From a virus (taxonomy: Duplodnaviria; Heunggongvirae; Uroviricota; Caudoviricetes), in IMG/VR virus record IMGVR_UViG_2541047784_000010, positions 1 through 40,741 of that record: DNA of 40,741 nucleotides. One strand, 5' to 3'. Position numbers and translations under genes: made by a program. How positions within the stretch are numbered: the first letter of the stretch is position 1; every line of letters starts with the position of its first letter. The notes under the pieces are model-generated. The model did not search any database, had not been told where the DNA came from, and was given only the letters and a program-made list of their open reading frames with translations. Shown in pieces: positions 3,406 through 40,741 of the stretch.

Positions 3406-3406
3406 G

Positions 3407-6518: not shown

Positions 6519-6622
6519 AAAGAAGATTTCCAATAATCAGAACAAGTCGGCTCCTGTTTAGTTACGAGCGACATTGCTCCGTGTATTCACTCGTTGGAAT
6601 GAATACACAGTGCTTCTCTGTG

Positions 6623-6820: not shown

Positions 6821-6859
6821 CTTCGCCTCTGCTGTTTATGCCAAAAATAAAGGCCACCA

Positions 6860-7130: not shown

Positions 7131-7263
7131 ATATCACCTCAAATAAGTGGTTTGCTGCCTAATTTCATTTTCTGGCGACCAACACAAGTCACACCCATTT
7201 CACTGCGTGGCTTGCGGTAGTAAATACGGTTATTTATGTCATTAAAAACCAGCGTGAGCGTGG

Positions 7264-7530
7264 TTATTTTTTCTTTCCAAGAGATGGAAGACCTCCAGAA
7301 TAATCTGGACCACTTGAACGATGCATTTGATACAATATTGCGTTTTTGTTGGCGTTTAGTGGCTTTGTTGCGAAAGAAATTTTTTCTCGTTTTACATCTC
7401 TTATCATCATCAACTCACGTTCTGATGCTTTTGGATGATAATCATTGATATGCTTCCATGCTGCCTTGGCGCTGAATTTTCTTCCACATAAAGGGCAATA
7501 GCATTTATATGATACTTGTTTGCTAGTCAT
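7264..7530 (-). CDS. Hypothetical protein with C2H2-like zinc-finger motif (88 aa)
   Basis: Motif CPLCGRKFSAKAAWKHINDYH (C-x2-C-x11-H-x4-H); directly downstream of N, in the position lambda uses for sieB. Confidence 0.5.
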   Translation of the reverse strand: MTSKQVSYKCYCPLCGRKFSAKAAWKHINDYHPKASERELMMIRDVKREKISFATKPLNANKNAILYQMHRSSGPDYSGGLPSLGKKK

Positions 7531-7532
7531 TT

Positions 7533-7841
7533 CTATCTCGCCGTAATTGATTTCATTGACCTGTAACCAGCAGCATACAGTGCAACTTCAGGCAAACAAA
7601 CGCTTCCGCCATTCGCATCTGTATTTGATTTACTGATGATGCCGAGTGATATTGCTTTTTCAGAAAGACTTAAACGCTTTCTCGGTTCTTCCTGAACAGC
7701 TTCCTCACTGTCTGTGCCGAAGATCGAATCGATGATGTTGCAGATGGAATCACGCTCGATAGCCAGCTTTCTGCGCCGCTCATGACGGCGAGTTTTGGCA
7801 TTTCCTGCAAATGTTGATTTTCCGTACACGATTACCGTCAT
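7533..7841 (-). CDS. N: N-type transcription antiterminator (P22 gene 24-like)
   Basis: Start trimmed to MTVIVYGKSTFAGNAKTRRHERRRKLAIER; arginine-rich boxB-binding motif; close match to my recollection of P22 gp24; downstream of PL and nutL. Confidence 0.85.
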   Translation of the reverse strand: MTVIVYGKSTFAGNAKTRRHERRRKLAIERDSICNIIDSIFGTDSEEAVQEEPRKRLSLSEKAISLGIISKSNTDANGGSVCLPEVALYAAGYRSMKSITAR

Positions 7842-7960
7842 GATGTTTTCCTCATGTGAAATGGCTTTGGTGGTGATGCGCCAGGTGCTGATCTTCTGGT
7901 TGCTGTCGTTGCAGCTGCAACTCACATCACCGCCAAACCCATCTCGTTTGGTATCTGTTT

Positions 7961-7996
7961 GCGCTTTGTCAGCGCCCCATCGAAGTTAAAGAGCCT
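7961..7996 (-). promoter_or_regulatory. nutL (boxA + boxB)
   Basis: On minus strand boxB GCGCTGACAAAGCGC (P22-type hairpin) preceded by boxA-like GGCTCTTTAAC; located between PL and N. Confidence 0.75.
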
Positions 7997-8040
7997 GCCA
8001 ATCTGTTCCGTTTGGCTTCCAGCTTCCTGCTGATGGCTAA

Positions 8041-8114
8041 ATAGTACGATGTGTACTTTATTGAGTCAATACAAAATGTTCTAAATGCGGTTAGTTTTTT
8101 ATAACACTTTGTAT
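8041..8114 (-). promoter_or_regulatory. PL promoter with OL operator sites (putative)
   Basis: Minus strand TTGACT-N17-TACTAT; three copies of motif ACA-N3-(T/C)GT-A(T/C) shared with OR region, one in the promoter spacer. Confidence 0.55.
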
Positions 8115-8132
8115 TTTATTGATTTATATTTT

Positions 8133-8163
8133 GGAAAAAGAAAACCCGACGATAAGGTCGGGT
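8133..8163 (-). terminator. Rho-independent terminator downstream of cI
   Basis: Minus strand ACCCGAC-cttatc-GTCGGGT stem followed by TTTTCTTTTTCC; lies between cI stop and PL (no rex genes present). Confidence 0.6.
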
Positions 8164-8194
8164 TATTGTTGTGTGTTTTAGAGTGGTGAGGCTG

Positions 8195-8854
8195 TTAACT
8201 AAATGTCTCTTCAGGCCACTGGCTGGCGATAACTTTCCCTACTACGGAACAGCTATCATTGCATGGGATCATTGGATATTGCGGGTTTAGTGGTTGTAGG
8301 AACACCTGACCGCTATCCCTGATCAGTTTCTTGAAGGTAAACTCGTCACCACCAAGTCTGGCTATGCAGAAATCACCTGGCTCAACAGCCTGCTCAGGGT
8401 CAACGAGAATTAACATCCCGTCAGGAAAGCTTGGCTTGGATCCTGTTGGTGCGGTCATGGAATTACCTTCAACTTCAAGCCAAAACGCACAATCACTGGC
8501 TTTTTTGGTTGTGCTGACCCATCTCTCCGCATCACCTTTGGTAAAGGTTCTAAGCTCAGGCGAGAACATCCCGGCCTGAACATGAGAAAAAACAGGGTAC
8601 TCATATTGTTTTTTAACGGGGGCAGATGAGTATTCGCCAACAGGTGAAAATGTACCGTCGTGGTTGAATGAGACGTTATCAATACCAAGGTATTTAAACA
8701 CCACACCAATCTCGTCAAGAGATGGATGACGAGATCCGCGCAACCAGTGACCAATTCCACCCTGCGTCATACCAAGCTCTTCAGCTAACTTCTCTTGAGT
8801 TATGCCGAGTTCTTTCATTCTGGATCTAGCCAGTTCATACCATTTCATTTTCAT
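8195..8854 (-). CDS. cI: CI-type immunity repressor (LexA-like S24 peptidase C-terminal domain)
   Basis: C-terminal ~130 aa match my recollection of lambda CI nearly residue for residue ([19 protein letters not shown]...[13 protein letters not shown]...[27 protein letters not shown]), including Ala-Gly cleavage site and Ser/Lys dyad; N-terminal HTH is unrelated to lambda; start set at MKMKWYEL with AAGGAT RBS. Confidence 0.9.
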
Positions 8855-8966
8855 ATCCTTATTATTACGCTCTGTACTAAAACCATCCATGCACAAGATG
8901 TATTTTTTTGTTTGCATTCCAAAAGTACATATCGTATTATTGTTTCATGGTTACTATGGAGGGCAT
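8855..8966. promoter_or_regulatory. OR region: divergent PR/PRM with operator sites (putative)
   Basis: PR TTGCAT-N17-TATTAT on plus strand ~25 nt before cro RBS; operator-like motifs ACAAGATGTAT and ACATATCGTAT (latter in PR spacer) shared with OL. Confidence 0.6.
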
Positions 8967-9182
8967 ATGAGCAACCTACGAAAATATCGAGAGTCACTGA
9001 ATATCTCTCAAACAACACTTGCTAAGGCGGTTGGATGCACACAGGGAGCTATCGGACATTGGGAATCTGGTCGTCGCTTCCCAGACCTTAAAACATGCCG
9101 TGCTCTTGTTGCGTGCCTAAACAAGTTAGGCGCAAAAGTCAGTCTTGATGACGTGTTCCCACCGGAACACAAAGCCGCTTAA
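8967..9182 (+). CDS. cro: Cro-type repressor
   Basis: 71 aa from MSNLRKYRESLNISQTTLAKAVGCTQGAIGHW; HTH recognition region nearly identical to that of the cI N-terminus (TQGGIGHW), as expected for shared operators; RBS GGAGGG. Confidence 0.8.
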   Translation: MSNLRKYRESLNISQTTLAKAVGCTQGAIGHWESGRRFPDLKTCRALVACLNKLGAKVSLDDVFPPEHKAA

Positions 9183-9193
9183 TAAGCGGATCC

Positions 9194-9228
9194 GCTCTTT
9201 ATCAATCTGCACCGCCGACAACGCGGTA
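9194..9228 (+). promoter_or_regulatory. nutR (boxA + boxB)
   Basis: boxA CGCTCTTTATCA followed by hairpin ACCGC-cgacaac-GCGGT, just downstream of cro. Confidence 0.7.
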
Positions 9229-9235
9229 ACTAATT

Positions 9236-9275
9236 AATCACTCATCGAAAGATGAGTATTAGTGATTATTTACCT
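9236..9275 (+). terminator. tR1-like terminator candidate
   Basis: Nested inverted repeats AATCACT / CTCATC-gaaa-GATGAG / AGTGATT followed by T-rich stretch between nutR and cII. Confidence 0.3.
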
Positions 9276-9291
9276 ATGGAAATAGTAAGAA

Positions 9292-9588
9292 ATGGAACAA
9301 ACAAGTTACAGCAAACTATCACAGCGCGACGTTGATCGCGCAGAAACAGATTTACTCATCAACCTGTCAACGCTTACCCAGCGCGGTCTGGCAAAGATGA
9401 TTGGCTGTCATGAATCGAAGATCAGTCGTACCGACTGGCGGTTTATTGCTTCGGTCTTGTGTGCTTTCGGAATGGCATCAGACATCAGTCCGATTAGCAG
9501 GGCTTTTAAGTATGCGCTTGATGGACTCACCAATAAAAAACGCCCGGCGGCAACCGAGCGTTCTGATCAAATACAAATGGAATTTTAA
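9292..9588 (+). CDS. cII: CII transcriptional activator
   Basis: 98 aa; C-terminus LTNKKRPAATERSDQIQMEF is essentially lambda CII (ILTNKKRPAATERSEQIQMEF); HTH region KISR conserved. Confidence 0.85.
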   Translation: MEQTSYSKLSQRDVDRAETDLLINLSTLTQRGLAKMIGCHESKISRTDWRFIASVLCAFGMASDISPISRAFKYALDGLTNKKRPAATERSDQIQMEF

Positions 9589-9610
9589 CAACATCCAACG
9601 AGGTAATTAT

Positions 9611-9883
9611 ATGCGAAACAAAGGCTTTAATCCACCTGATACACACAAAGAAGCTAAGCGTTTGCGCTTCCTTCGTTCCATTGATGAAAGAACTCAAATC
9701 TCTTTTGTGAAAGTTGCCAGAACTGAGCTTCTGAAGGCTGAGGCGAGGGCGTTGCTCCCGTCTCTACCAAAAGAGGAGGGATATACGTTCATTCCAAACG
9801 CATTTCTGGAAAAGCTTCTCAAAGAAGACATATCCGTAAGTCAGTTTAACGATGTTCTTAAGGTCTTTCGTCAAGGCAGGTAG
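9611..9883 (+). CDS. Hypothetical protein (90 aa) between cII and replication genes
   Basis: In-frame ATG at 9611 within longer track ORF 9401-9883 that overlaps cII; RBS GAGG upstream. Confidence 0.45.
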   Translation: MRNKGFNPPDTHKEAKRLRFLRSIDERTQISFVKVARTELLKAEARALLPSLPKEEGYTFIPNAFLEKLLKEDISVSQFNDVLKVFRQGR

Positions 9884-9885
9884 TT

Positions 9886-10833
9886 ATGAGCAATACAGCA
9901 AAAATCTACGATTTCAGCGCCGCACACGAGCGCAGGAGCAACAGGATGGAGAACCAGAAAACTGGTTACATTCCGTTGTACCGGAGCATTCTGAAACAGT
10001 CATGGGCGAAAGATGTTTATCTTCGCACCCTGTGGGAAAACCTTCTCCTGAATGCTGCCAGAAAGCCATACAAAGCGAATTTCAAAGGTCATGAATGGCA
10101 TCTGCAACCCGGTCAACTGGTTGTGACAGCAGCTGATTTAGGTCTTCAGTTATGCGACAGGCATGGCAAGCCGGCAAGCCGTGATCAGGTTGAGCGGATG
10201 CTTCAGGTTTTTGTGAAAGAGGGGATGATCTCCATTGATGGAGAGAAGCAAAAAGGTCGTGTGATCACCATCACAAATTACCATGAATATGCTCAAAAAA
10301 TGGACGATTCACCCGCACATGAAGCCGCACAAACAACCGCACATGAAGCCGCACATGATGAAGCCAGTAATGGCGCGGCTTTCAGCGTACATGCCACACA
10401 TGAAAGCGCACATGAAGCCGCACAAACAACCGCACATCATGAACAAGAAGGTATTAACAAGAATATAAATAATACCCCCCTACCCCCCAATGGGGGAGGC
10501 GATGGGCAGGTTAAACCTGAACGTCGCAAGGCAGAACGAATCGACTACGAATCCTTCCTGAACGCCTACAACACCGAAGTCGGTGACAGACTGCCACACG
10601 CTGTTGCGGTCAACGAGAAACGAAAACGCCGCCTGAAGAAAATCATCCCGCAACTGAAAACGCCAAACGTTGACGGTTTCAGAGCGTATGTCAGGGCGTT
10701 TGTGCATCAGGCTAAGCCGTTTTACTTCGGAGACAACGACACGGGCTGGACGGCCGATTTTGATTACCTGCTGAGGGAAGACTCGTTAACGGGAGTTCGG
10801 GAAGGGAAGTTTGCAGACAGGGGGATTGCATGA
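9886..10833 (+). CDS. O: Replication initiator, lambda O / P22 gene 18-like
   Basis: 315 aa; position after cII; central His/Ala-rich repeats encoded by DNA iterons (ori inside gene, as in lambda O); basic C-terminal part. Confidence 0.75.
10310..10500 (+). repeat. Origin of replication: iterons plus AT-rich segment inside O gene
   Basis: Three or more copies of CGCACATGAAGCCGCACA within 140 bp, followed by AT-rich AAGAAGGTATTAACAAGAATATAAATAATA and C6/G5 tract. Confidence 0.7.
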
Positions 10834-12206
10834 GACAGGATATCGAAGCGAGCGTTATCGGTGGCCTGCTGATTGGTGGATTAACTCCAACCGCCAGCGA
10901 CGTTCTGGCAACGCTGGAGCCGGAAGCGTTTTCAATTCCGCTCTACCGGAAAGCCTTCGAGGTTATCCGCAAGCAGGCGCGAAACAGAAACCTAATCGAC
11001 GCACTGATGGTTGCCGAGGCGTGCGGAGAGGAGCATTTCACGTCAATCCTGATGACCAGCAAAAACTGCCCGAGTGCCGCAAACCTGAAGGGATATGCCG
11101 GAATGGTCGCGGATAACTATCACCGCCGTCTGGTGCTGGAAATCATGGATGAAATGCGTGAACCAATTCAGAGCGGAACCATCGACGCATCGAGTCAGGC
11201 GATGGATGAACTTGTAAAACGTCTCTCAGCCATCAGAAAGCCCCGTGACGAGGTAAAACCTGTACGGTTAGGGGAAATCATTACTGACTACACTGACACG
11301 CTTGACAGGCGTCTGAGGAACGGAGAAGAGTCAGATACCCTGAAGACCGGAATCGAAGAACTTGATGCCATCACCGGAGGGATGAACGCGGAAGACCTGG
11401 TGATTATCGCTGCTCGTCCTGGTATGGGGAAAACCGAGCTGGCGCTGAAGATTGCCGAAGGCGTTGCAAGCCGCGTTATTCCTGGTTCTGACGTCCGGCG
11501 CGGGGTATTGATTTTCTCAATGGAAATGAGCGCATTGCAGATTGCAGAGCGAAGCATTGCCAACGCCGGGAGAATGTCGGTTAGCGTGCTGCGAAATCCT
11601 GCATCGATGGATGACGAGGGCTGGGCACGTGTTGCTAACGGCATGAGTCAGCTTGCGGATTTGGATGTATGGGTAGTCGATGCCTCGCGGTTATCGGTCG
11701 AAGAAATACGCTCAATCGCAGAACGGCACAAACAGGAAAATCCAAACCTGTCACTCATCATGGCGGATTATCTTGGCCTGATTGAGAAGCCGAAAGCAGA
11801 TCGCAACGACCTCGCAATTGCTCACATCTCCGGAAGCCTTAAGGCGATGGCGAAAGACCTGAAAACGCCTGTTATCTCCCTGAGTCAGCTTTCACGCGAT
11901 GTTGAGAAGCGACCAAACAAACGCCCGACAAACGCAGATTTGCGTGATTCAGGAAGCATTGAGCAGGACGCAGACTCAATCATCATGCTCTATCGGGAAG
12001 CGGTATATGACGAGAACAGTAGCGCCGCGCCATTTGCTGAAATCATTGTGACGAAAAACCGTTTTGGCTCGCTTGGTACGGTTTACCAGCGGTTCTGTAA
12101 CGGACACTTTGTTGCATGTGACCAGGATGAAGCCAGACAGATTTGCACAGCATCAAATGCACCTGCTGCGCGTGGCAGACGATATGCACAAGGGGCGGAC
12201 GTATGA
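10830..12206 (+). CDS. DnaB-family replicative helicase (P22 gene 12-like)
   Basis: 458 aa; Walker A ARPGMGKT, DnaB C-terminal motifs; ATGA overlap with O-like gene. Confidence 0.9.
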
Positions 12207-12284
12207 CCATCTACATCACTGAGCTAATAGCATGGTTATCGTTACTAATGGTTCTTACTGTATATATTATTAAGTATATTCTTT

Positions 12285-12896
12285 ATGCGAATAAAAAAAC
12301 TAATTGATCACGATGAGCTTCTGTCAACATTATCATATGACTCAGAAACAGGAATATTTAAATGGCTAAAAACAAATTCAGTAGTAAGAGTAAAAGGTAG
12401 TATTGCTGGAGGTGTTAGTGGTGGTTATATATGCATTAGCATAAATAATGTTTTGTATTATGCGCATAGACTTGCTTGGTTCTATGTATACAAAAAATGG
12501 CCTCCTAAGTTTATTGATCATGTAAATGGGAACAGACTTGACAATAGGATTTCAAATCTAAGACTGGCAACAGAAGAGCAGAATGCAAGAAACATTGTAG
12601 GGAATAGATTAAACACATCCGGTGCAATTGGAGTGTCTTGGTATAAGCCAACTGGCAGGTGGAAGTCTTATGTTGGTTATAAAAATAAGACAATATCGTT
12701 AGGGTATTTCGATAGCAAAGAAGATGCAGCATTCATAGCAGCACTAGCAAGAAAGAAACTATATGGAACTTATGCGAGTAAAGCACTTAATTGCGAGCAT
12801 GAGCTTTTATCTCAATTTAATAATGATGAGGATAAACTTGCGGAATATCTTAAGGAAAAATCTAAAAGGACTCGAAAGCGTGTTAAAAACAGATAA
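12285..12896 (+). CDS. HNH endonuclease with AP2-type DNA-binding domain (homing-endonuclease-like)
   Basis: 203 aa; HNH_3-like motif AHRLAW...FIDHVNGNRLDNRISNLRLATEEQN and AP2-like GVSWYKPTGRWKSYV; low GC; own terminator. Confidence 0.8.
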   Translation: MRIKKLIDHDELLSTLSYDSETGIFKWLKTNSVVRVKGSIAGGVSGGYICISINNVLYYAHRLAWFYVYKKWPPKFIDHVNGNRLDNRISNLRLATEEQNARNIVGNRLNTSGAIGVSWYKPTGRWKSYVGYKNKTISLGYFDSKEDAAFIAALARKKLYGTYASKALNCEHELLSQFNNDEDKLAEYLKEKSKRTRKRVKNR

Positions 12897-12928
12897 AGGC
12901 CTGCTGGTAATCGCAGGCCTTTTTATTT
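12897..12928 (+). terminator. Rho-independent terminator
   Basis: AGGCCTGC-tggtaatc-GCAGGCCT followed by TTTTATTT directly after HNH gene stop. Confidence 0.85.
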
Positions 12929-12943
12929 GGGGGAGAGGGAAGT

Positions 12944-13270
12944 GTGGCTGACTGGCAAATTCCAATCATCATTCTTGCCGGAGCTTCGCTGGTTGCTGGC
13001 TTTATCCTTCTGAAAAAGCATAAAGACCGTGATCAAAAAGTCGAAGTTCTCTATGGGTATCCAGCGAACAGCACAACATGGCTGACCATTTACCACTACC
13101 GAAAATCAGGCCGCTGGGTATTCGAATGGGATGATCTGTTCGCTGAAAAGCGACCAAAGTCATGGGGAGACATCAGCGAATGCGTGATGTTTGAAGAAAG
13201 AAAATCCGGCGCAACCCGAGAAGAGTTTAACGAAGCGTGGGCGCGATTAAGTGAGAGAGGGTATTTGTGA
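12944..13270 (+). CDS. Hypothetical protein with N-terminal transmembrane helix (108 aa, GTG start)
   Basis: Hydrophobic N-terminus IPIIILAGASLVAGFILL; RBS GGGAGAGGG. Confidence 0.45.
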   Translation: MADWQIPIIILAGASLVAGFILLKKHKDRDQKVEVLYGYPANSTTWLTIYHYRKSGRWVFEWDDLFAEKRPKSWGDISECVMFEERKSGATREEFNEAWARLSERGYL

Positions 13271-13467
13271 GCAAGTACGAAAAATTAGATCAAAACATTC
13301 TTTCAATGCTGAGTGAAAGACCAACACCTGTTTTTGATATCTGGCTTAAATGGCGGAGCAATGGAATGTATATCGAAACCATCGATCGCCGTATGCAATA
13401 CCTGAGAAAGAAAGGGCTTGTTGCAAATGTGCGTGGGAAGGGTTGGGTGAAAATTAACCTGTCATAA
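13267..13467 (+). CDS. Hypothetical protein (66 aa, GTG start)
   Basis: Small basic ORF overlapping neighbours in operon fashion. Confidence 0.4.
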   Translation: MSKYEKLDQNILSMLSERPTPVFDIWLKWRSNGMYIETIDRRMQYLRKKGLVANVRGKGWVKINLS

Positions 13468-13478
13468 CGGGGATTGAT

Positions 13479-13793
13479 ATGGACGAATCAAGAAAGAAGT
13501 TTGAGGAATACGTTGCCAAAAAATTGAGATTACCATTCGAGATGATAACCGAGGCAAGAAATGGTGATAGGTACTTCGCATTTTCAAGCATGGATATTCG
13601 TCACTCCTTAAATGAGTGGTGGGCTTTATGGCAGGCATCGCGAGCAGCTATTGAAATAACCGCGCCAAAGTTTATCGACAGCAGAGAAGCATTAGCCAAA
13701 GGGTTTACTGTTGATTATTCCAATGGCTTCGGTGATGCAATGGATGCTTATGAGGAAAACATCCGCTCTGCTGGAGTCAAAGTGAAGGAGTAA
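13479..13793 (+). CDS. Hypothetical nin-region protein (104 aa)
   Basis: ORF with ATG and upstream purine-rich RBS; no motif recognised. Confidence 0.5.
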   Translation: MDESRKKFEEYVAKKLRLPFEMITEARNGDRYFAFSSMDIRHSLNEWWALWQASRAAIEITAPKFIDSREALAKGFTVDYSNGFGDAMDAYEENIRSAGVKVKE

Positions 13794-13795
13794 CG

Positions 13796-14206
13796 ATGAA
13801 GCAAACAATCTTCCTCCGAACTAAGCAACAACAGCAAGCTGCAATAAATGCCATCCTCGCAACACCACTCGATAAAGACAAGCCAGTCACCATCCGCATT
13901 ACTGACTACAAGCGAAATCTTGACCAGAACGCAAAATTTCACGCGATGCTGGCGGATATCGCTCGTCAGGTTCAATGGTGCGATAAGTGGTTAAAACCAG
14001 AACAATGGAAGGTTTTGTTGATTAGCGGTCATGCAGTGGCAACAAAGCAGGAAGCTGATGTTTTGCCCGGGCTTGAAGGCGAATACGTCAACATTCGCGA
14101 AAGCAGCGCGCAGATGAGCGTGAAGCGTATGGCAAGTCTGATCGAGTACACAACAGCATGGGCTATTGGTCAGGGAGTCAGATTTACCGACAGGAGGTAC
14201 GAATGA
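13796..14206 (+). CDS. ninB: NinB recombination protein
   Basis: 136 aa; conserved core [30 protein letters not shown] resembles lambda NinB. Confidence 0.85.
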
Positions 14207-14379
14207 GACGACAGCGACGAAGTTTCACCGACATCATCTGCGAAAACTGCAAATACCTTCCAACGAAACGCACCAGAAATAAACCCAAGCCAATCCCAAA
14301 AGAATCTGACGTAAAAACTTTCAATTACACGGCTCATCTGTGGGATATCCGGTGGCTAAGACATCGTGCGAGGAAATGA
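14203..14379 (+). CDS. ninE: NinE-like protein (start trimmed to MRRQRRSF)
   Basis: 58 aa nearly identical to my recollection of lambda NinE ([23 protein letters not shown]...). Confidence 0.75.
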
Positions 14380-14783
14380 CAATGCTTTTAATTCAACCTG
14401 GATTTGGCCTTAGCATCAAAAAAGGGCACATGTTTGGCGAGAAAGAGTCACAACGAAAAATGGTGTCTATCCGGTTGCCATTTATCAGTATTTATTGGCT
14501 AAACAGGGAGGCAACAAATTATTGGTATACATGTGCCAGAGCAGCATTTAACGACCCTGACTGGTTTGTGAAAAACCACCACGCAGTTCGTCAGGCAAAG
14601 AGAAAGGCCAATACGACATACATGAAGGCGTATCGAAAAGCATGGAAAGAACACCGCGATCGATACCAGCAAGACATGGAAAAGCTTGAATCAGAAAACA
14701 TGGAATTAAGACGAAAGCTTGGTGAAGCAAAACGAGACATTGATGCTTACAAGCGACTTTTTAATGGTGAAAGCCATGCTTAG
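14376..14783 (+). CDS. Hypothetical nin-region protein (about 135 aa; start uncertain)
   Basis: Track ORF 14340-14783; internal ATG at 14376 follows GAGGA; C-terminal coiled-coil-like. Confidence 0.4.
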
Positions 14784-14952
14784 TCCATCCCAATCTCTTC
14801 AATACCAGAAAGAAAGCGTCGAGCGAGCTTTAACGTGCGCTAACTGCGGTCAGAAGCTGCATGTGCTGGAAGTTCACGTGTGTTCCGATTGCTGCGCAGA
14901 ACTGATGAGCGATCCGAATAGCTCAATGTACGAGGAAGAAGACGATGAGTGA
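14776..14952 (+). CDS. ninF: NinF-like protein (start trimmed to MLSPSQSL)
   Basis: 58 aa with CxxC...CxxCC pattern matching lambda NinF. Confidence 0.8.
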   Translation: MLSPSQSLQYQKESVERALTCANCGQKLHVLEVHVCSDCCAELMSDPNSSMYEEEDDE

Positions 14953-15157
14953 TTACCTGAAATGGTATCTCTGCCACCGCTGGTTAATTAAGTTTGCTGT
15001 AAAAGACTGGATGACAGCGGATGCCAACAAGCTTAAGCAAAGAAAGGACTATTACTACGCCAGAATGAAGGAAAACTACTGCTCAATTCGCACTCGCATA
15101 TTTATTAAAAAAGACCTTCAGTCAATTCTTCAATTGCGAGGGAAGGTAAATGGCTAA
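14945..15157 (+). CDS. Hypothetical protein (70 aa)
   Basis: Small ORF translationally coupled within nin operon. Confidence 0.4.
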   Translation: MSDYLKWYLCHRWLIKFAVKDWMTADANKLKQRKDYYYARMKENYCSIRTRIFIKKDLQSILQLRGKVNG

Positions 15158-15440
15158 CCTACGCAAAGAAGCACGCGGCAGAGAATGCCAGGTACGTATT
15201 TACGGCGTATGCAATGGCAATCCTGAAACTACAGTTCTGGCACATTATCGGATGGCTGGAATTTGCGGAACTGGAATGAAGCCTGACGACCTGATCGGCG
15301 CATGGGCTTGTAGCGCGTGTCACGATGAAATCGACCGACGCACCCATAACCTCGACAACAAAGACGCCAGACTTTACCACCTGGAAGGCGTGATCAGGAC
15401 GCAGGCGATACTGCTGAAGGAGGGGAAGATTAAGCCATGA
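15150..15440 (+). CDS. Cys-rich nin-region protein (DUF1364-like)
   Basis: 96 aa with CQVRIYGVC...CGTG...CSACHDE pattern. Confidence 0.5.
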   Translation: MANLRKEARGRECQVRIYGVCNGNPETTVLAHYRMAGICGTGMKPDDLIGAWACSACHDEIDRRTHNLDNKDARLYHLEGVIRTQAILLKEGKIKP

Positions 15441-15799
15441 ACGAATATCAGTTTGTGCTTCCATACCCGCCGTCGGTGAACACCTACTGGCGAAGACGGG
15501 GAAGCCAATACTACATCAGCGATAAAGGCCAGAAATACCGAAAAGACGTTCAGCAAATCATCCGCCAACTTAAGTTAGACATTTTCACCAAATCACGACT
15601 CCGCATCAAAGTCATCGCAGACGTTCCAGACTCCCGCCGCCGCGACCTCGACAACATCCTGAAAGGTTTACTCGACTCCCTTATCCACGCCGGATTTGCG
15701 GAAGACGACGAGCAATTCGATGACATTCGCGTAATTCGTGGTGTGAAAGTACCAGGCGGAAGGCTTGGAATAAAAATCACCGAACTGGAGAACGTATGA
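15437..15799 (+). CDS. rusA: RusA-type Holliday junction resolvase
   Basis: 120 aa; LPYPPSVNTYWRRRG...RRRDLDNILKGLLDSL...GGRLGIKITE matches RusA family. Confidence 0.9.
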   Translation: MNEYQFVLPYPPSVNTYWRRRGSQYYISDKGQKYRKDVQQIIRQLKLDIFTKSRLRIKVIADVPDSRRRDLDNILKGLLDSLIHAGFAEDDEQFDDIRVIRGVKVPGGRLGIKITELENV

Positions 15800-15984
15800 A
15801 CGCCACAATTCAAACGATACCAGAGCTTCTTATCCAGACACGAGGCAATCAGACCGAAGTGGCGAGGATGCTTTCCTGCGCAAGAGGAACAGTGCTCAAG
15901 TACAACCGAGACAGCAAAGGCGAGCGTCACGTAATAGTTAACGGCGTCCTGATGGTCAAACAGGGCAAGAGGGGAAGACGATGA
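15796..15984 (+). CDS. ninH: NinH-like protein
   Basis: 62 aa; TIPELLIQTRGNQTEVARMLSCARGTVLKY resembles lambda NinH. Confidence 0.75.
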   Translation: MNATIQTIPELLIQTRGNQTEVARMLSCARGTVLKYNRDSKGERHVIVNGVLMVKQGKRGRR

Positions 15985-16499
15985 GTATAAGAGAACTAAA
16001 CCTCACCAAAGAACAGCACGATTGGCTGAATGGCTGGCTTGAACTGTGGGGCGCATGGGTTTATTCAGGCCGCCTGGAAAAGCGCATGAGCAGCGTAATA
16101 GCGAAGTTCATGGAGAGCGTAGAGCCGGGAAGAGTTATGACAAGGCCAATGTGTAATGATGATAATGGAATGTTGATTTCTCAGGTCGTCGATTCCGTGA
16201 TGTACATTGACAAGAAAGCCTTTGGCATCCTCCTCAGCTACTACGCTCATGGTTCATCTAAGCGAGCAATTGCATCCTACTATCACGCGACTGCAAAGCC
16301 ACGCAAGATGTGTGGGCGTGGTGGCGAGGGATGGAGAAAACCTTCACTGGCAACCTGTAGAAACGAAATTGACGATATCCTGAAAGCGTCATTATTTGTT
16401 TTGTACCAACCAATGCAAAATGCTTTCAAAATGCGTAAACGTGTTGAGAAAGTTAAGCATGTTGCTGTTAAAAGCCTTGACATGCAATTAGCCATTTAG
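15981..16499 (+). CDS. Q: Late-gene antiterminator Q (phage 82-like type, not lambda Q)
   Basis: 172 aa; last gene of nin operon immediately upstream of a promoter plus terminator pair and lysis genes. Confidence 0.7.
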   Translation: MSIRELNLTKEQHDWLNGWLELWGAWVYSGRLEKRMSSVIAKFMESVEPGRVMTRPMCNDDNGMLISQVVDSVMYIDKKAFGILLSYYAHGSSKRAIASYYHATAKPRKMCGRGGEGWRKPSLATCRNEIDDILKASLFVLYQPMQNAFKMRKRVEKVKHVAVKSLDMQLAI

Positions 16500-16506
16500 C
16501 CATAAT
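16477..16506 (+). promoter_or_regulatory. Late promoter PR' candidate
   Basis: TTGACA-N18-CATAAT overlapping 3' end of Q, followed ~40 nt downstream by terminator. Confidence 0.5.
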
Positions 16507-16547
16507 ATTCACATATGCTGCTGCTTTTGTATTCAGCAACCATCACA

Positions 16548-16572
16548 AGCCCACCTCCTGTGGGCTTTTTTG
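16548..16572 (+). terminator. Rho-independent terminator (tR'-like)
   Basis: AGCCCAC-ctcct-GTGGGCT followed by TTTTTT. Confidence 0.85.
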
Positions 16573-16693
16573 CATTCGCGTGCAATCAAAACAAGAGTCT
16601 TAGTGATATGGGCCTGAGATATGGTGGTGGAAACATCGCTCCGCTCTTGGCTGTCATATCTACGCGAACAGGCTCTATCCCTAAGGTAAAGCG

Positions 16694-17206
16694 ATGAAAG
16701 AAATAAAATTAACGCCAGAAATGGTGCTTTCTGTTGTTGATTACAATCCATCATCAGGCGACTTTCACTGGAGATGGAGGCAGGGGAGAGAGAGGACCAC
16801 TTTGACATGGAACTCTCGTTTTGCTTTCAAGAAATGCTCATCAATAAATTCTGATGGGTATTTAATGATTATGATTAATGGTAAAGCATACCCTGCTCAC
16901 AGACTGGCATGGTTGATTGTTTATGGCACCATGCCCGATGGTTTTATTGATCACATCAACAGGGTAAGAACAGATAACCGGATATCAAATCTTCGTCTTG
17001 TCACTCATTCCGAAAATATGCAAAACAGGAAAATTCAGAAGAATAATAAATCTGGATACCGTGGCGTGTCTTGGGATGCTAAGTACGGGAAATGGAGAGC
17101 AAGAATTAATGCGTCTGGAAAGTGTATTAACCTTGGATACCATGACACTGCCGAACTTGCCGCTGCGGCTTTTGAGGCAGCCAGAATGAAATATCATACC
17201 GTTTAA
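16694..17206 (+). CDS. HNH endonuclease with AP2-type domain, paralog of 12285-12896
   Basis: 170 aa; AHRLAWLIVYG...FIDHINRVRTDNRISNLRLVTHSENMQN and AP2-like YRGVSWDAKYGKWRARI; inserted between Q and lysis genes; low GC. Confidence 0.8.
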   Translation: MKEIKLTPEMVLSVVDYNPSSGDFHWRWRQGRERTTLTWNSRFAFKKCSSINSDGYLMIMINGKAYPAHRLAWLIVYGTMPDGFIDHINRVRTDNRISNLRLVTHSENMQNRKIQKNNKSGYRGVSWDAKYGKWRARINASGKCINLGYHDTAELAAAAFEAARMKYHTV

Positions 17207-17214
17207 AGATGTAA

Positions 17215-35676: not shown

Positions 35677-36600
35677 ATGAAAAGTATAGCAACAGCAGTA
35701 TCTACTATCAATGTACCATTCCACGGCGCAGAGCTTTATGTTGTCAATCACAACGGCGAACCGTATACCCCAATGAAACCTATCGTTGAGGGAATGGGGC
35801 TAGACTGGAAATCTCAACATAAGAAGATTTCTCAACGCTTCTCGAAGGGTATGGTGGAAATCACCATACCTTCTGCCGGTGGGGTGCAAGCCATGATTTG
35901 TATGGCTTTACGAAAATTGGCAGCTTGGTTGAACAGCATCAGTCCTAACAAAGTCCGCCCTGAAATCCGCGACAAGGTAATCCAGTATCAGGAAGAGTGT
36001 GACGATGTGCTCTACGAGTACTGGACTAAAGGCCATGTAGTTAATCCACGCAAAGCTAAAAAGGCGTTGCCGGGTAAAATCACCACTGAACAGCAGGAAG
36101 CCATTAAACAACTCGTCATGAGTCGCGGTCAGTCTCTGCCAAAAGAAAAACAGGCGAAGGCAATGATTACCATGTGGTCGTCACTGAAATCTCATTTTGG
36201 GTGTTCATACAAAGAAATCAGCGAGGAGCAGTTTACCGAAGCTCTGTCACTTGCAGCTCGCGTTCCGCTTGAAGGCGAGTTTATCGGCAAACAAGAGAAG
36301 AAAACCAACGAGCTTTCTGCAAAAGAAGCAAACAGCCTTGTATGGTTATGGGATTATGCCAACCGCTCACAGGCATTATTCCGCGAACTGTATCCGGCGC
36401 TAAAACAAATTCAATCGAACTATTCCGGCAGATGCTACGACTATGGTCATGAGTTCTCGTATGTTATCGGAATGGCGAGAGACGTTTTAATCAATCACAC
36501 ACGAGATGTTGATATCAATGAGCCAGACGGACCAACGAATCTTTCCGCATGGATGAGACTTAAGAATAAAGAATTACCTCCTTCAGTACATAACTACTGA
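35677..36600 (+). CDS. ant: Antirepressor (Ant-position protein)
   Basis: 307 aa in the position of P22 ant downstream of arc; N-terminus resembles antirepressor N-terminal domain; followed by terminator. Confidence 0.55.
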   Translation: MKSIATAVSTINVPFHGAELYVVNHNGEPYTPMKPIVEGMGLDWKSQHKKISQRFSKGMVEITIPSAGGVQAMICMALRKLAAWLNSISPNKVRPEIRDKVIQYQEECDDVLYEYWTKGHVVNPRKAKKALPGKITTEQQEAIKQLVMSRGQSLPKEKQAKAMITMWSSLKSHFGCSYKEISEEQFTEALSLAARVPLEGEFIGKQEKKTNELSAKEANSLVWLWDYANRSQALFRELYPALKQIQSNYSGRCYDYGHEFSYVIGMARDVLINHTRDVDINEPDGPTNLSAWMRLKNKELPPSVHNY

Positions 36601-36618
36601 CAGATAACCAACGCAACG

Positions 36619-36643
36619 ACCCAGCTTCGGCTGGGTTTTTTTA
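36619..36643 (+). terminator. Rho-independent terminator after ant
   Basis: ACCCAGC-ttcg-GCTGGGT followed by TTTTTTT. Confidence 0.85.
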
Positions 36644-36700
36644 TGCCCAAAATTCACCGTAGCCATGCTGCGGCCATTCCTTGTATCTGGAGCAAATCAA

Positions 36701-39178
36701 ATGACAGATTCAATAAATGCCAATGTTGTAGTGAGTATGCCTTCGCAACTCTTCACTATGGCGCGTTCTTTTAAAGCCGTAGCCAATGGCAAAATTTATA
36801 TCGGTAAAATTGACACTGACCCGGTAAATCCTGAAAACCAGATTCAGGTTTATGTGGAGAACGAAGACGGTTCTCACGTCCCTGTTTCGCAACCAATCAT
36901 CATTAACGCTGCTGGATATCCGGTATATAACGGACAGATTGCCAAGTTCGTAACTGTGCAAGGCCATTCTATGGCTGTTTATGATGCATATGGTGCACAG
37001 CAGTTTTATTTTCCTAATGTGCTGAAGTATGACCCCGATCAGCTACGGCCGCAATTAGAAGATCCAGATGGCGCTAAAAAATATCCTGAGTTGCAGATGG
37101 CACGATGGAGAGATTGTGGAGATGTTAGAGGGTGGGGAGCAAAAATAGATGGGGTAACAGATGATTCAGATGCTTTTATTAAAGCTTTAAACTCTGGAAG
37201 GTCGGTTATAACAATTCCTGAAGGAATATGCATCATCAAGAAGAATATTAACATTCCGGAAGGATGTTCACTGGTTGGATCTGGCATTGATTATTGGGAC
37301 ACATATAGACCAGCGCCTGAAAGATTATTAAAAAGTTGGAGTAAAGGAACCCATCTTGTATTTACTGGTGATGGAGAAAAAAACAAATATTTTTTTAACA
37401 TCTCTAATGAAAGACCAGCTAAAATTGTTGAAGGGATATCTTGTAAGTTCACTGAGTTTACGAATGAAGATTCTGTAGGTGTTACTCCTGCTACACCAAA
37501 AGCCATGAGCGTAGCTGTTAGTATCAACAGGGCATCACAGTTACGCAATCTGAGAATAATGGTAAGTAAAAATGGTATTGAAGGATACAATAACCCTGAT
37601 TCTTATTCATTGGGTGATAACTGGGATATAGGGTTGCATGTATACGATAGCTGTGATTCAGTTATTGATAACGTACAGATTGTCGGCTATTGGAGGGTAA
37701 AAGGACTACTACTGACAGAAAATGACGGGAGCCTTTCAATGAAGGGAAATCCTGAAAAAACGCACTTTAATAACGTTTATGTCCAGTCAGGAATCGCGAT
37801 AAGGAATAGCCCTCAGATTGATCTTGTAAGTAATACTGAAAGCTCAGTGACATTTAAACATAAAAAGTCGATGAGAATAACTTCAGTTAAACAGTTTAAA
37901 ATTGCTGGCAGTGAATCAGTATATACGTATTCAGATGCATCATTTGATGGAACTAACATCACACTATCTGGTATTTCTCCTGAAATACAAGGTACAATAA
38001 GTGTAATCAGGTTTCCGTCAATTGGTAATAATTTTAGCGGGACTGTTTTTGAGAATACAGTAGCCACTACTCTTGATCATACATCAGGTAAGCCATCAGA
38101 ATACTTTGGCCTTCCTGCATCCTTTGCATTAGAGGTTGATGGTTTCCCTGTTCGTAATTTAAGGTTTGATAAATTCAAAGCTCAAACAACATTTGATAAA
38201 GGAAATTGCATTTTTGGTGATTGCCGTGATGTTAAAATAACATCATCTGAGTTTGAAAATGGAATTATGATTGCGTATAACCAGACCGAGACTCAGGGTT
38301 ATACAGGAAATCTTAGATTTTTTGCTTCTGATCTTCAGAGCAGCGTTAACACAAGTGAGTTTAAACCAAGAGACGCATTTGTAGACAATAGACAAATAAA
38401 AACGGAGTTTACTGATGGTTCGTTCATTATAAAGAACTGGAGGCCTACAGATACAAAAATACAATGGTCGTCTGGAGTAGATGCTATTGTTCTTAGAGAG
38501 TCACCTGACGAACAATCAAACGGAAATATTTACGGGTATCACATTGATGGTAAAAGATGGATTAATGTTAGTGGATATAACAAAGATATAAATATTTCAT
38601 CAAGAAACTTAAGCGTAAAAAACCATGGTGATGACTCTGCAGTTATTAATATATTCGGCGACTCTGGAAATATTGCCATTAAAGGTAATTTTTCACCAAT
38701 TATTGATAACAGCAAATCTCTTGGTGCACCATCATTTAGATGGGCTCAGATTTATTCTGCATCCGGGACTATAAGCACATCAGATGAAACACTTAAAACA
38801 ATATATGACATTACTCAGGCAGAGCGTGATGCTGCGCTGGAAATAAAGGGAATTATATGCAAGTTCAGGTTTAATGAGTCGATTAATTTTAAAGGATTGG
38901 AGTTATCAAGGTATCATTTTGGAGTTGGCGCTCAAACCGTAGGAGATATTCTTAGAAAGCATGGTTTAAATCCTGAGCAATATGCTTTTTGGTGTTACGA
39001 TGAATGGCCAGACGTATGGGATGAAGAGGTGATAACTGAAGAGAGCACAGATCCTGATACAGGTGAGAAAATTTATTCTCAATATAAAACAGGAAATATG
39101 ATTCTTGTAAAAAAAGCAGGTGGACGCTACGGAATTCGTTATGACGAATTGGCTATGTTTATATTAATGGCAATGTAG
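36701..39178 (+). CDS. Tailspike: P22-type head-binding domain + beta-helix receptor domain + C-terminal intramolecular chaperone domain
   Basis: 825 aa from [18 protein letters not shown]; N-terminal ~110 aa match P22 gp9 head-binding domain as recalled; C-terminal ~130 aa carry endosialidase-chaperone (peptidase S74-like) pattern with SDETLK autocleavage motif. Confidence 0.9.
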
Positions 39179-39197
39179 TTGCAATAAATGCAGTATA

Positions 39198-39226
39198 TCC
39201 CGCATGAAAACTGCGGGATTGTTTTT
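39198..39226 (+). terminator. Rho-independent terminator after tailspike
   Basis: TCCCGCA-tgaaaac-TGCGGGA followed by TTGTTTTT. Confidence 0.85.
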
Positions 39227-39910
39227 ATCTAGTGTATTTGTGAGTTTTAAATAAAATTTGGTATGGATTCTTGCATCGTAGTGAACGCATGATTACCTAT
39301 GAAACAAAACTGAGACACACAAAGCTTTGCACTGGATTGCAAGGCTTTGTGCTCTTCTATGCTGAGTGGTGGGGCATATATGGGGCAAATCACACAGTTA
39401 GATCTACGGAGAACTACGGTGCTTGATGTTTCAGTCAACTCTAACTGCCTGTTATCTGGTGTGCTCTTGGGCGATCTTTGTCATTTATGAAATATACATG
39501 GTCATATGCAGCCATACCAGATGCCAGTATCAAAGATATCGAGGTACTTACGACACTTTTCTTTAATGCAGACTTCATAAATGTTCCTCTTCTTATTGTA
39601 CTTAATTCCAAAGTAATTTTACGAAGAGAAATAAGTGAATGTAAGTGAAGTTAGTCACATAAAGAGATAGCAGATTTAGCTAAAAAAAGGGAAATAACAG
39701 TCCATAACGCGTTGACATTACTTTCTGTTCTACTAAGTAATTTCTCGCCGATAAACAACTAATCTATTGATATTTAATAAATTATTGTATTTCACTGACA
39801 AATTGCCGAGCTGAGATCATAAATAATCATGCAACAGGTTATGAAAATGCATAAATATGTGATGGCTGTCACTTATTTATTTCAAGAAATATATCGCCTG
39901 GAAACAACGC

Positions 39911-39931
39911 GGGGCAGGGAATGGCTGCCCC
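39911..39931. terminator. Inverted repeat, probable terminator of the AraC-family gene
   Basis: Perfect GGGGCAG-ggaatgg-CTGCCCC about 50 nt beyond the stop of the minus-strand gene; T-rich on minus side. Confidence 0.4.
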
Positions 39932-39979
39932 ATTTAATTCTTACGCAGCGTGTGTGGTTGACTACTCGTTAGCAAATAA

Positions 39980-40741
39980 TCAACTAGCTAAAGCATTCAT
40001 CGTGTTGTCCGTGTTCATACCCGTGTGCCTTTGACAACGGTACTCCTTAGAAACTCTCTTCGGACTGTTGCCGAAATGTTTGCGAAACGCATAAATAAAA
40101 TAAGATGTACTGGCATAACCGCATTGTTCAGCAATTTTATTGACTGAACCTTCTACGCGTATCAAATTTTTCGCGTGCTGCATTCTGGCATCTAAAAGAA
40201 TCTGTGAGAATGTCGTTTGCTCTTGCTTTAGTTTTTTCTTCAACAGGCTTTCACTGATGTACAGGCAGTCACAAATATCTTTCAGCTTCCATGGGTGCGC
40301 CAGCTTCATGTTGACAATATTTCTTACTTTCCCGGAAACGGATAGCACACCGTTAGTTAATAGTGTAATGAAACCTTTGCATGCGGCAAAAATAGACAGG
40401 CAAGAAAAAAGCAAAAGCTCTGAAAAATTATGATGATTGCGTTCTTCCGAGTTGAGATAAGCAATCATTTCATTAAGCAATCCAGTCGGTACATTTGAAG
40501 CACGTAAAAACTTCGCAGGAACAGGCATCGTCACTGTCTGGATGTTAGTGCATTGTAGATATTTTTTAATGGTATTTTCATTAAATCCGATTTCTTTGAA
40601 ATGCCGCTCATAAGGTTCAAAATGCGTGCGAACAGCGTTATCTACCATCAGGATCTCGCCGTCAGAGAAGGCGTAATCTTTATCTAAAATGTTAGCGTTG
40701 AAGGCATGATGAATAAATATAACAGAACAAACGAGCGACAT
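39980..40741 (-). CDS. AraC-family transcriptional regulator (start codon at window edge; may be truncated)
   Basis: 253 aa; C-terminal AraC HTH (ISESLLKKKLKQEQTTFSQILLDARMQHAKNLI...GYASTSYFIYAFRKHFGNSP); AT-rich context. Confidence 0.85.
   Translation of the reverse strand: MSLVCSVIFIHHAFNANILDKDYAFSDGEILMVDNAVRTHFEPYERHFKEIGFNENTIKKYLQCTNIQTVTMPVPAKFLRASNVPTGLLNEMIAYLNSEERNHHNFSELLLFSCLSIFAACKGFITLLTNGVLSVSGKVRNIVNMKLAHPWKLKDICDCLYISESLLKKKLKQEQTTFSQILLDARMQHAKNLIRVEGSVNKIAEQCGYASTSYFIYAFRKHFGNSPKRVSKEYRCQRHTGMNTDNTMNALAS

What the first reader, a model, noticed from the sequence alone, without database searches (positions are those of the whole stretch)
36701..39178. Mosaic tailspike: P22 head-binding domain fused to a distinct beta-helix and a self-cleaving chaperone domain
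The first ~110 residues match the P22 tailspike head-binding domain, but the remainder is unrelated to the P22 endorhamnosidase. The C-terminal ~130 residues show the endosialidase-type intramolecular chaperone pattern including the SDETLK autocleavage motif (near nt 38779-38799). The central AT-rich part is therefore a swapped receptor-binding depolymerase of unknown specificity whose C-terminus is predicted to be cleaved off after trimer folding.
Basis: partly seen in the sequence, partly recalled or inferred. Interest (0 to 1): 0.5.

Follow-up and report, generated by a model that had tools for sequence, protein, structure and literature searches.

The report
Mosaic prophage tailspike, likely K14-capsule-specific
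This is the tail spike gene of a P22-like prophage, built from three swapped modules: a virus-attachment domain, a sugar-cutting beta-helix and a self-removing folding helper; the helix module occurs almost only in E. coli with the K14 capsule, so it is probably a K14 capsule-degrading enzyme, but it is otherwise an ordinary example of a known design.

Summary
ORF 36701-39178 (+) encodes an 825-aa tailspike. It has a P22-type head-binding domain (aa 4-114, Pfam E=1e-65) and a central domain with no sequence match to the P22 endorhamnosidase, modelled as a right-handed beta-helix. The C-terminal 132 aa match solved intramolecular chaperone domains (endoNF, T5 pb1, phi29 gp12). SDETLK lies at 38780-38797, and all five residues of the proposed autocleavage site are conserved.

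The mosaicism is directly visible. Window 37282-38786 (aa 195-695) is 98.7-98.8% identical to a cassette in epsilon15-like prophage tailspikes. The flanking neck is only about 58% identical and the chaperone about 36%. The right-hand breakpoint falls in the cleavage motif.

The "unknown specificity" can be narrowed. Lysogens carry at least four O-antigen types (O15, O6, O83, a GDP-fucose type). Yet all 20 complete E. coli genomes with this tailspike, and 8 of 9 with the cassette in the other phage type, carry the K14 group-2 capsule locus. That locus occurs in 108 of 5426 genomes.

The architecture is already known from phage CUS-3 (head-binding domain + endosialidase + chaperone). This is a new member of a known kind, with a useful, untested K14 prediction.

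The parts
36618..36637 (+). Intrinsic-terminator-like hairpin plus T-run. It ends the upstream antirepressor-like gene (35677-36600) and separates it from the tailspike gene.
   Evidence: Terminator scan; sequence read.
36701..39178 (+). Tailspike gene: 825 codons plus stop. Precursor 91.7 kDa; predicted mature protein aa 1-693, 76.5 kDa.
   Evidence: ORF list; GGAG 8 nt upstream of the ATG at 36701; 98-99% identical genes annotated 'phage tailspike protein' in 20 complete E. coli genomes; masses.
36701..37060 (+). Module 1, aa 1-120: P22-type head-binding (particle-attachment) domain.
   Evidence: Pfam PF09008 at aa 4-114, E=1.2e-65. Sf6, P22 and HK620 tailspike N-termini in PDB and phage records, up to 94% identity. 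91% nucleotide identity to CUS-3 over 36501-37140.
37061..37281 (+). Module 2, aa 121-194: neck and N-terminal cap of the beta-helix ([27 protein letters not shown]). It is a conserved linker shared by spikes with different heads and probably serves as a recombination joint.
   Evidence: Pect-lyase_RHGA_epim at aa 142-197. 9vvr tail spike matches aa 114-195 at E=9e-17. CUS-3 similarity runs to aa 164, and epsilon15-type similarity starts at aa 147.
37282..38786 (+). Module 3, aa 195-695: exchanged receptor-binding cassette. It is a right-handed beta-helix, the putative K14 capsule depolymerase, and includes the short pre-cleavage stalk (aa 651-693).
38777..38797 (+). Predicted autocleavage site: scissile bond T693|S694 followed by SDETLK (S694 nucleophile, K699 base).
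   Evidence: Motif position. Column-by-column alignment to T5 pb1 S1264A, endoNF S911A and 7y5s. Roles of the residues come from PMC4690869. S694 is conserved in 47 of 51 homologs and K699 in 47 of 51.
38780..39175 (+). Module 4, aa 694-825: C-terminal intramolecular chaperone domain (Peptidase S74 type), 15.3 kDa, predicted to be released after trimer folding.
   Evidence: phmmer to solved chaperone domains at E=1e-10 to 3e-17. Foldseek to 3gw6 and 4uw8 at probability 1.0, and to 3gud with target TM-score 0.75. Pfam PF13884 at 21.4 bits, cutoff 22.
39197..39219 (+). Intrinsic-terminator-like hairpin 19 nt after the stop codon; end of the tailspike transcription unit.
   Evidence: Terminator scan.

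Best explanation
This is the receptor-binding tailspike of an HK620/CUS-3/Sf6-like (P22-like) prophage, made of four recombined segments.

- aa 1-120 dock the trimer onto the tail (shown by homology).
- aa 121-194 are a conserved neck that doubles as a recombination joint (inferred from breakpoints).
- aa 195-693 form a right-handed beta-helix that binds and most likely hydrolyses a surface polysaccharide. From the genomes that carry it, that polysaccharide is the K14 group-2 capsule, ->6)-beta-D-GalpNAc-(1->5)-beta-Kdop-(2->. This is inferred from association, not assayed.
- aa 694-825 are an intramolecular chaperone. It nucleates trimerisation and folding of the C-terminal stalk, then removes itself by Ser694/Lys699-mediated cleavage of the T693-S694 bond. 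This leaves a 76.5-kDa mature spike and a 15.3-kDa fragment (inferred from conserved catalytic residues).

The phage would therefore use the capsule as its primary receptor and tunnel through it, as K1-specific CUS-3 does with its endosialidase.

For: Autocleavage. D669, R680, T693, S694 and K699 align with T5 pb1 D1239, R1250, T1263, S1264 and K1269. PMC4690869 gives the roles of these residues.

Phage context. The structural genes are 95-96% identical to HK620, CUS-3 and Sf6. An ant-like gene lies upstream, and terminators flank the gene.

Module exchange. The identical 1505-bp cassette occurs in epsilon15-like prophages with a different N-terminus and chaperone. The same central + chaperone module is also found behind PF09008, PF18668, PF03906, PF12571 and PF12236 N-termini.

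Not an O-antigen spike. Lysogens are O15, O6, O83 and a GDP-fucose type. Only 3 of the 20 are among the 100 O15 genomes, of which 96 were listed.

K14 link. kps region 2 consists of a hexapeptide acetyltransferase, a 761-aa GT2 + KpsC/S-like Kdo-transferase, and galE. It matches K14_8 (761 aa) and the 13.9-kb K14 reference locus of PMC13171606. It occurs in 108 of 5426 genomes. All 20 tailspike genomes and 8 of the 9 cassette-only genomes are among them. The hypergeometric P is 1.5e-35 for 20 of 20, or 5e-11 if only 6 lineages are independent. The 20 span three kps allele groups and at least three insertion sites: argW, next to sbcB, and next to ydeO.
Against: - No enzymatic or adsorption data exist. 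The K14 link is a genomic association, and lineages are not fully independent.
- One genome, GF43, has the cassette but not the K14 region 2. I did not follow this up.
- The K type was assigned from gene length, domain content, locus length and literature, not by aligning to a K14 reference sequence.
- Pfam PF13884 is 0.6 bits below its gathering score on this sequence.
- Catalytic residues of the beta-helix are only candidates taken from conservation (D306, D309, E340, D342, E352, E478, D510, E519). Hydrolase versus lyase is undecided, and so is which glycosidic bond is cut.
- The host K type of the window's own genome is not visible in the window.
Confidence: 0.75

Rival explanations
1. It is an O-antigen-specific endoglycosidase tailspike like those of P22, Sf6 and HK620, and its specificity matches the lysogen's O serogroup.
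For: This is the default for P22-like phages. The N-terminus is 94% identical to the HK620 tailspike. Three lysogens are O15, against 1.8% of all genomes.
Against: Near-identical spikes (98-99%) sit in O15, O6, O83 and GDP-fucose-type strains. 17 of the 20 lysogens are not among the 96 listed O15 genomes.
Confidence: 0.07
2. It degrades a polysaccharide common to all E. coli, such as colanic acid, as the label of PHROG 8280 suggests.
For: PHROG 8280, 'tail spike protein with colonic acid degradation activity', matches aa 2-369 at E=2e-117. The PF12708 N-cap motif is shared with WcaM-like proteins (the WcaM link is from my own knowledge).
Against: Much of that PHROG score comes from the head-binding domain. 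PHROG 1171, a plain 'tail spike protein' family, fits aa 121-825 far better (E=7e-204). A universal receptor would not give 28 of 29 carriers in a capsule type present in 2% of genomes.
Confidence: 0.03
3. The K14 association is a by-product of shared ancestry or of some other trait of K14 lineages. The spike's real receptor is something else, and the gene may be an inactive passenger.
For: Several carriers are clonal: E50/E67/E57/E20, the CREC/CRKP set, and Combat2C1/FDAARGOS_1256. One prophage, in O15_8X, is a deletion remnant. GF43 is an exception.
Against: The carriers span three kps allele groups, at least four O types, at least three integration sites and two unrelated phage types. The ORF is intact and 98-99% conserved in all 20 genomes.
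Confidence: 0.1
4. The C-terminal domain is retained in the mature spike. It would be a degenerate, non-cleaving chaperone or a distal receptor-binding knob.
For: Pfam PF13884 scores just below threshold. The AF2 model is poorly defined at aa 673-691, just before the site.
Against: All five residues of the proposed catalytic site are present. S, D and K of the motif are conserved in 46-47 of 51 homologs. Low monomer confidence is expected for a segment that folds only as an interdigitated trimer.
Confidence: 0.1

Closest known systems
Endosialidase tailspike SiaK1 of P22-like phage CUS-3 (E. coli K1)
   Same: - It belongs to the same phage group; the structural genes are about 96% identical.
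- The gene sits in the same position, after ant.
- The N-terminal 164 aa are 87% identical, and the C-terminal chaperone is homologous (34% over aa 662-817).
- It has the same three-part logic, and it targets a group-2 capsule rather than O antigen.
   Different: The CUS-3 catalytic part is a GH58 endosialidase of 982 aa. Here the catalytic part is an unrelated beta-helix. Only the last 43 aa of the endosialidase stalk profile match. CUS-3 carries the capsule-modifying neuO downstream; nothing comparable is seen here.
C-terminal intramolecular chaperone domains of K1F endoNF (3gw6), T5 pb1 (4uw8) and phi29 gp12 (3gud); MEROPS/Pfam Peptidase S74
   Same: Sequence matches are at E=1e-10, 7e-13 and 9e-7, and the fold also matches. 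The T|S-D-x-x-x-K site and the upstream Asp and Arg are conserved.
   Different: Identity is only 17-27% in the Foldseek alignments to these three structures. The domain is attached to a different mature protein. Cleavage has not been shown for this protein.
Tailspikes of P22, Sf6 and HK620 (O-antigen endoglycosidases)
   Different: There is no sequence similarity beyond aa 121-140. Those spikes have no cleavable chaperone domain (my own knowledge). The receptor here is probably capsule, not O antigen.
Epsilon15-like (Uetakevirus) prophage tailspike of E. coli ECONIH2 and Phi05_1387 B (918 aa; protein cluster P0006, 654 member sequences)
   Same: It carries the same cassette: aa 195-695 at 98.7-98.8% DNA identity. 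Its hosts are also K14 (8 of 9).
   Different: The N-terminus is a different, epsilon15-type particle-binding region (MTVSTEVDHNEYTGNG...). The neck is 58% identical and the chaperone only 36%.

Membership tests
P22-type tailspike head-binding domain (Pfam PF09008) | N-terminal domain of about 110 aa that matches the family profile above its curated threshold | tested here: met
   219.2 bits against a cutoff of 24, aa 4-114. Sf6, P22 and HK620 N-termini match at E=1e-45 to 2e-64.
P22-type tailspike head-binding domain (Pfam PF09008) | Encoded as the last late gene of a P22-like genome, downstream of the mnt/arc/ant (immI) region | tested here: met
   Structural genes are 95-96% identical to HK620, CUS-3 and Sf6. 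The order ant-like ORF, terminator, tailspike matches the CUS-3 annotation.
Peptidase S74 / C-terminal intramolecular chaperone domain | Match to the Pfam PF13884 profile at its gathering score | tested here: not met
   21.4 bits against a cutoff of 22 (E=3e-4), aa 694-756. The miss is marginal, and most homologs carry PF13884.
Peptidase S74 / C-terminal intramolecular chaperone domain | Sequence homology to experimentally solved chaperone domains | tested here: met
   7y5s 3e-17, 9vvr 8e-15, T5 pb1 4uw8 7e-13, endoNF 3gw6 1e-10, phi29 3gud 9e-7.
Peptidase S74 / C-terminal intramolecular chaperone domain | Catalytic Ser and Lys spaced S-x4-K at the domain start, preceded by Thr, with the upstream Asp and Arg 'folding sensor' | tested here: met
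   T693|S694, K699, D669 and R680 align with T5 pb1 T1263|S1264, K1269, D1239 and R1250. Residue roles are from PMC4690869.
Peptidase S74 / C-terminal intramolecular chaperone domain | Predicted fold resembles solved chaperone domains | tested here: met
   Foldseek gives 3gw6 at E=1e-8 and 4uw8 at 4e-8. For 3gud the target TM-score is 0.75 and the rmsd 4.9 A.
Peptidase S74 / C-terminal intramolecular chaperone domain | Autoproteolytic release after trimer assembly | not testable with these tools
   This needs expression and SDS-PAGE or mass spectrometry of wild type against S694A and K699A.
Right-handed beta-helix (pectin-lyase-fold) phage depolymerase | Central domain folds as a right-handed parallel beta-helix | tested here: met
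Right-handed beta-helix (pectin-lyase-fold) phage depolymerase | Demonstrated glycan-cleaving activity and identified catalytic residues | not testable with these tools
   Only conserved acidic candidates are available: D306, D309, E340, D342, E352, E478, D510, E519.
Endosialidase (GH58) | Beta-propeller sialidase catalytic domain | tested here: not met
   Only aa 651-693 match the last 43 positions of PF12219. The endosialidase chain 4hiz matches aa 656-693 only.
P22 endorhamnosidase catalytic domain | Sequence similarity beyond the head-binding domain | tested here: not met
   P22 alignments end at aa 117-140. There is no hit with aa 114-695 as the query.
K14 capsule-specific depolymerase (proposed functional class) | Occurrence restricted to hosts that carry the K14 kps locus | tested here: met
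   20 of 20 and 8 of 9 carrier genomes fall among the 108 of 5426 K14-locus genomes.
K14 capsule-specific depolymerase (proposed functional class) | Degrades K14 polysaccharide | not testable with these tools
No characterised K14 depolymerase was found in the literature library.

The most novel reading that the evidence does not exclude
The cassette at aa 195-693 could be the first sequence-defined depolymerase for the E. coli K14 (GalNAc-Kdo) capsule. It might cut the beta-Kdo ketosidic bond with a beta-helix active site. That would make it a Kdo-glycanase of a glycoside hydrolase type not yet described at sequence or structure level. It would also be a ready-made reagent, or therapeutic lead, for one of the most invasive ExPEC capsule types.
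Probability: 0.3. Interest if true: 0.65.

Novelty: new member of a known kind. Interest (0 to 1): 0.42.

Why it matters
As an architecture it adds nothing new. Modular tailspikes with exchangeable heads, beta-helix depolymerases and self-cleaving chaperones are textbook cases (CUS-3, K1F, T5, phi29).

The value lies in the specificity prediction. [quoted passage not shown] Capsule-specific tailspike reagents are reported to exist essentially only for K1 and K5 (bioRxiv 10.1101/2025.01.29.635457). A K14-specific spike could serve for capsule typing, detection or depolymerase therapy.

The locus is also a clean natural example of a recombination breakpoint sitting exactly on the chaperone cleavage motif. 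This shows that catalytic module and chaperone are exchanged independently.

Tried and rejected
- O-antigen hypothesis. I located the rfb loci of four lysogens and listed the O15 wzy carriers. There is no common O type, so I rejected it.
- My first guess for the capsule type was K52, because of the O15:K52 clone. I rejected it because the K52 locus has many more region-2 genes, and its reference genome NZ_LR025101.1 is O15 but carries neither the tailspike nor this region 2.
- The colanic-acid label of PHROG 8280 was not supported (see rival explanations).
- From memory I took the right-flank gene for AppY. NCBIfam shows it is YdeO.
- The HNH endonuclease reported under the match in Combat2C1 is not inside the gene. 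It lies in the ant-tailspike spacer on the other strand.
- Looking up strain accessions in the supplements of the K-typing paper found nothing.
- Literature searches for a K14 phage or depolymerase found nothing relevant.
- I could not analyse active-site geometry because model coordinates are not exposed to scripts.

Full report
**What is there.** The window is essentially one P22-like prophage. A tyrosine recombinase gene lies at 158-1462 (-). The structural genes are 95-96% identical to HK620, CUS-3, Sf6 and vB_EcoP-611R6. At the right end, after an antirepressor-like ORF (35677-36600) and a terminator (36618-36637), lies the ORF in question.

It is open from 36665, but the ATG at 36701 has a GGAG 8 nt upstream. 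That start gives [10 protein letters not shown]..., colinear with Sf6, P22 and HK620 spikes. The gene is 36701-39178: 825 aa, 91.7 kDa. A terminator follows at 39197-39219. The flanking chromosomal gene at 39980-40741 (-) is ydeO.

**Observation check.**
- Head-binding domain. PF09008 matches aa 4-114 at E=1.2e-65. PDB chains of Sf6 (aa 1-121, E=2e-64) and P22 (aa 5-117, E about 1e-49) match the same region.
- Central domain. Beyond aa 121-140 nothing aligns with P22, Sf6 or HK620.
- C-terminal domain. SDETLK is aa 694-699, nt 38780-38797. The C-terminal domain matches solved intramolecular chaperone domains: 7y5s 3e-17, 9vvr 8e-15, T5 pb1 7e-13, 6eu4 8e-12, endoNF 1e-10, phi29 gp12 9e-7. Pfam Peptidase_S74 misses its threshold by 0.6 bits.
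- Composition. GC falls from 0.43 to 0.36-0.37 after the head-binding part.

**The chaperone.** The T5 pb1 paper describes cleavage of the Thr1263-Ser1264 bond. Ser1264 is activated by Lys1269. Arg1250 of a neighbouring chain sits between Asp1239 and Thr1263, so cleavage requires a correctly formed trimer (PMC4690869).

In the alignment these residues correspond to T693|S694, K699, R680 and D669 here; all are present. In 51 homologs, T, S, D and K of the motif are kept in 46-47 sequences. Foldseek places the modelled domain on 3gw6, 4uw8 and 3gud.

Autocleavage into a 76.5-kDa mature spike and a 15.3-kDa fragment is therefore well supported, but it is still an inference.

**The central domain.** PHROG 1171 ('tail spike protein') covers aa 121-825 at E=7e-204. 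A database search found 117 relatives in which this central + chaperone unit follows quite different N-termini: P22 head-binding PF09008, TSP1/gp66 PF18668, T7 fibre PF03906, PF12571 and PF12236.

**Mosaicism is demonstrable.**
- Upstream DNA and aa 1-147 are 91% identical in nucleotides to CUS-3, and aa 1-164 are 87% identical in protein.
- Window 37282-38786 (aa 195-695) is 98.8% identical to a prophage gene in ECONIH2 and 98.7% to Phi05_1387 B, which is classified as a Uetakevirus. The end points are identical in both.
- Those genes encode a 918-aa spike with an epsilon15-type N-terminus. Their neck is 58% identical and their chaperone only 36% identical.

The right breakpoint lies inside the S694-D695 codons. 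The catalytic cassette and the chaperone are therefore exchanged independently, using the conserved cleavage motif and the conserved neck as joints.

**Specificity.** Twenty complete E. coli genomes carry the whole gene at 98-99% identity. Nine more carry the cassette in the epsilon15-type gene.

I first tested the usual expectation of an O-antigen link. The rfb loci are O15 in O15_8X, O6 in Combat2C1, O83 in LR-60 and a GDP-fucose type in E50. O15 wzy is present in 100 genomes, but only 3 of the 20 lysogens are among them. The prophages also sit at different sites: argW, next to sbcB and next to ydeO (window). An O-antigen receptor is therefore unlikely.

I then examined the group-2 capsule locus of Combat2C1. 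Its serotype-specific region 2 has three genes:
- a hexapeptide acetyltransferase;
- a 760/761-aa protein with an N-terminal GT2 domain and a KpsC/S-type (Kdo-transferase) domain;
- a galE.

This region occurs in 108 of 5426 genomes. Three searches with the three allele variants listed all 108: 26 + 51 + 31 (also 44). All 20 tailspike genomes are among them, and so are 8 of the 9 cassette genomes. The exception is GF43. The naive hypergeometric P is 1.5e-35. Even with only six independent lineages it is 5e-11.

The locus is K14 on several grounds:
- The K-typing paper lists K14_8 as a 761-aa protein with a nucleotide-sugar transferase domain at residues 2-227.
- Its K14 reference locus is 13.9 kb, as it is here.
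- It lists K14 among the K types whose polysaccharide contains Kdo, correlating with its predicted Kdo-transferase domains.
- The K14 reference strain is O6:K14:H31 (PMC13171606).

The published K14 repeat is ->6)-beta-D-GalpNAc-(1->5)-beta-Kdop-(2-> (PMC3787102). That fits a hexosaminyl/Kdo bifunctional polymerase plus an epimerase. I did not align to a K14 reference sequence, so the K-type name is strongly supported but not proven.

**Mechanism proposed.** The trimer docks to the tail through aa 1-120. The beta-helix binds and depolymerises K14 capsule so the virion can reach the outer membrane. During synthesis, the C-terminal domain nucleates trimer folding and then cleaves itself off at T693|S694. 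A hydrolase mechanism is favoured because of the conserved carboxylates. Which bond is cut, Kdo ketoside or GalNAc glycoside, is open.

**Comparison and novelty.** CUS-3, a P22-like K1 phage, already has head-binding domain + capsule depolymerase (endosialidase) + homologous chaperone in the same genome position. The chaperone family is well characterised. This is a new member of a known kind.

I found no characterised K14 depolymerase in the literature library. K14 is clinically prominent, and tailspike reagents are said to exist only for K1 and K5. The practical interest is therefore moderate.

**Limits.** There is no wet-lab evidence. The association is not phylogenetically corrected. GF43 is unexplained. 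The K type of the window's own host is unknown.

Noticed in passing
window 39980-40741 (- strand): The chromosomal gene flanking the prophage on the tailspike side is ydeO (NCBIfam equivalog, 604.6 bits), not appY as I first assumed. Similarity to other prophages carrying this spike ends at about 39360, next to a 14-bp-stem inverted repeat at 39318-39351. The prophage end (attR) is probably there.
   Followed up: partly
L001 (Combat2C1) 3109-3681, replacing window 36709-36751: In Combat2C1 and FDAARGOS_1256 a 573-bp segment lies between ant and the tailspike. It carries an HNH-endonuclease ORF on the opposite strand and also supplies a different 5' end for the tailspike gene. It may be a free-standing homing endonuclease at a module junction.
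   Followed up: partly
L003 (O15_8X) 6000-22700: The P22-like prophage at argW in strain O15_8X is a deletion remnant: a partial N gene is fused to partial tail genes, and there are no head genes. It nevertheless keeps an intact, 99%-identical tailspike gene.
   Followed up: no
L002 (ECONIH2) 5228-7981: PGAP annotates the epsilon15-type tailspike as a pseudogene 'missing C-terminus' (5228-7702). The reading frame is in fact open for 918 codons and includes a divergent chaperone domain. This is probably an annotation artefact caused by the swapped C-terminal module.
   Followed up: partly
L012 11693-12711 and L013 12034-13021 (kps region 2): The galE-like epimerase gene of the K14 capsule locus is flagged as frameshifted in both Combat2C1 and O15_8X, although the capsule contains GalNAc. 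Either another epimerase supplies UDP-GalNAc, or the annotation is wrong.
   Followed up: no
NZ_CP172127.1 (strain GF43), hit H64: This is the only genome with the 98.7%-identical cassette that is absent from all three complete lists of K14 region-2 carriers. It is an unexplained exception to the capsule association.
   Followed up: no
L015 (CUS-3) 6605-6737: CUS-3 carries the phase-variable capsule O-acetyltransferase neuO just downstream of its tailspike. The corresponding 800 bp in the window (39179-39980) hold no comparable ORF.
   Followed up: partly
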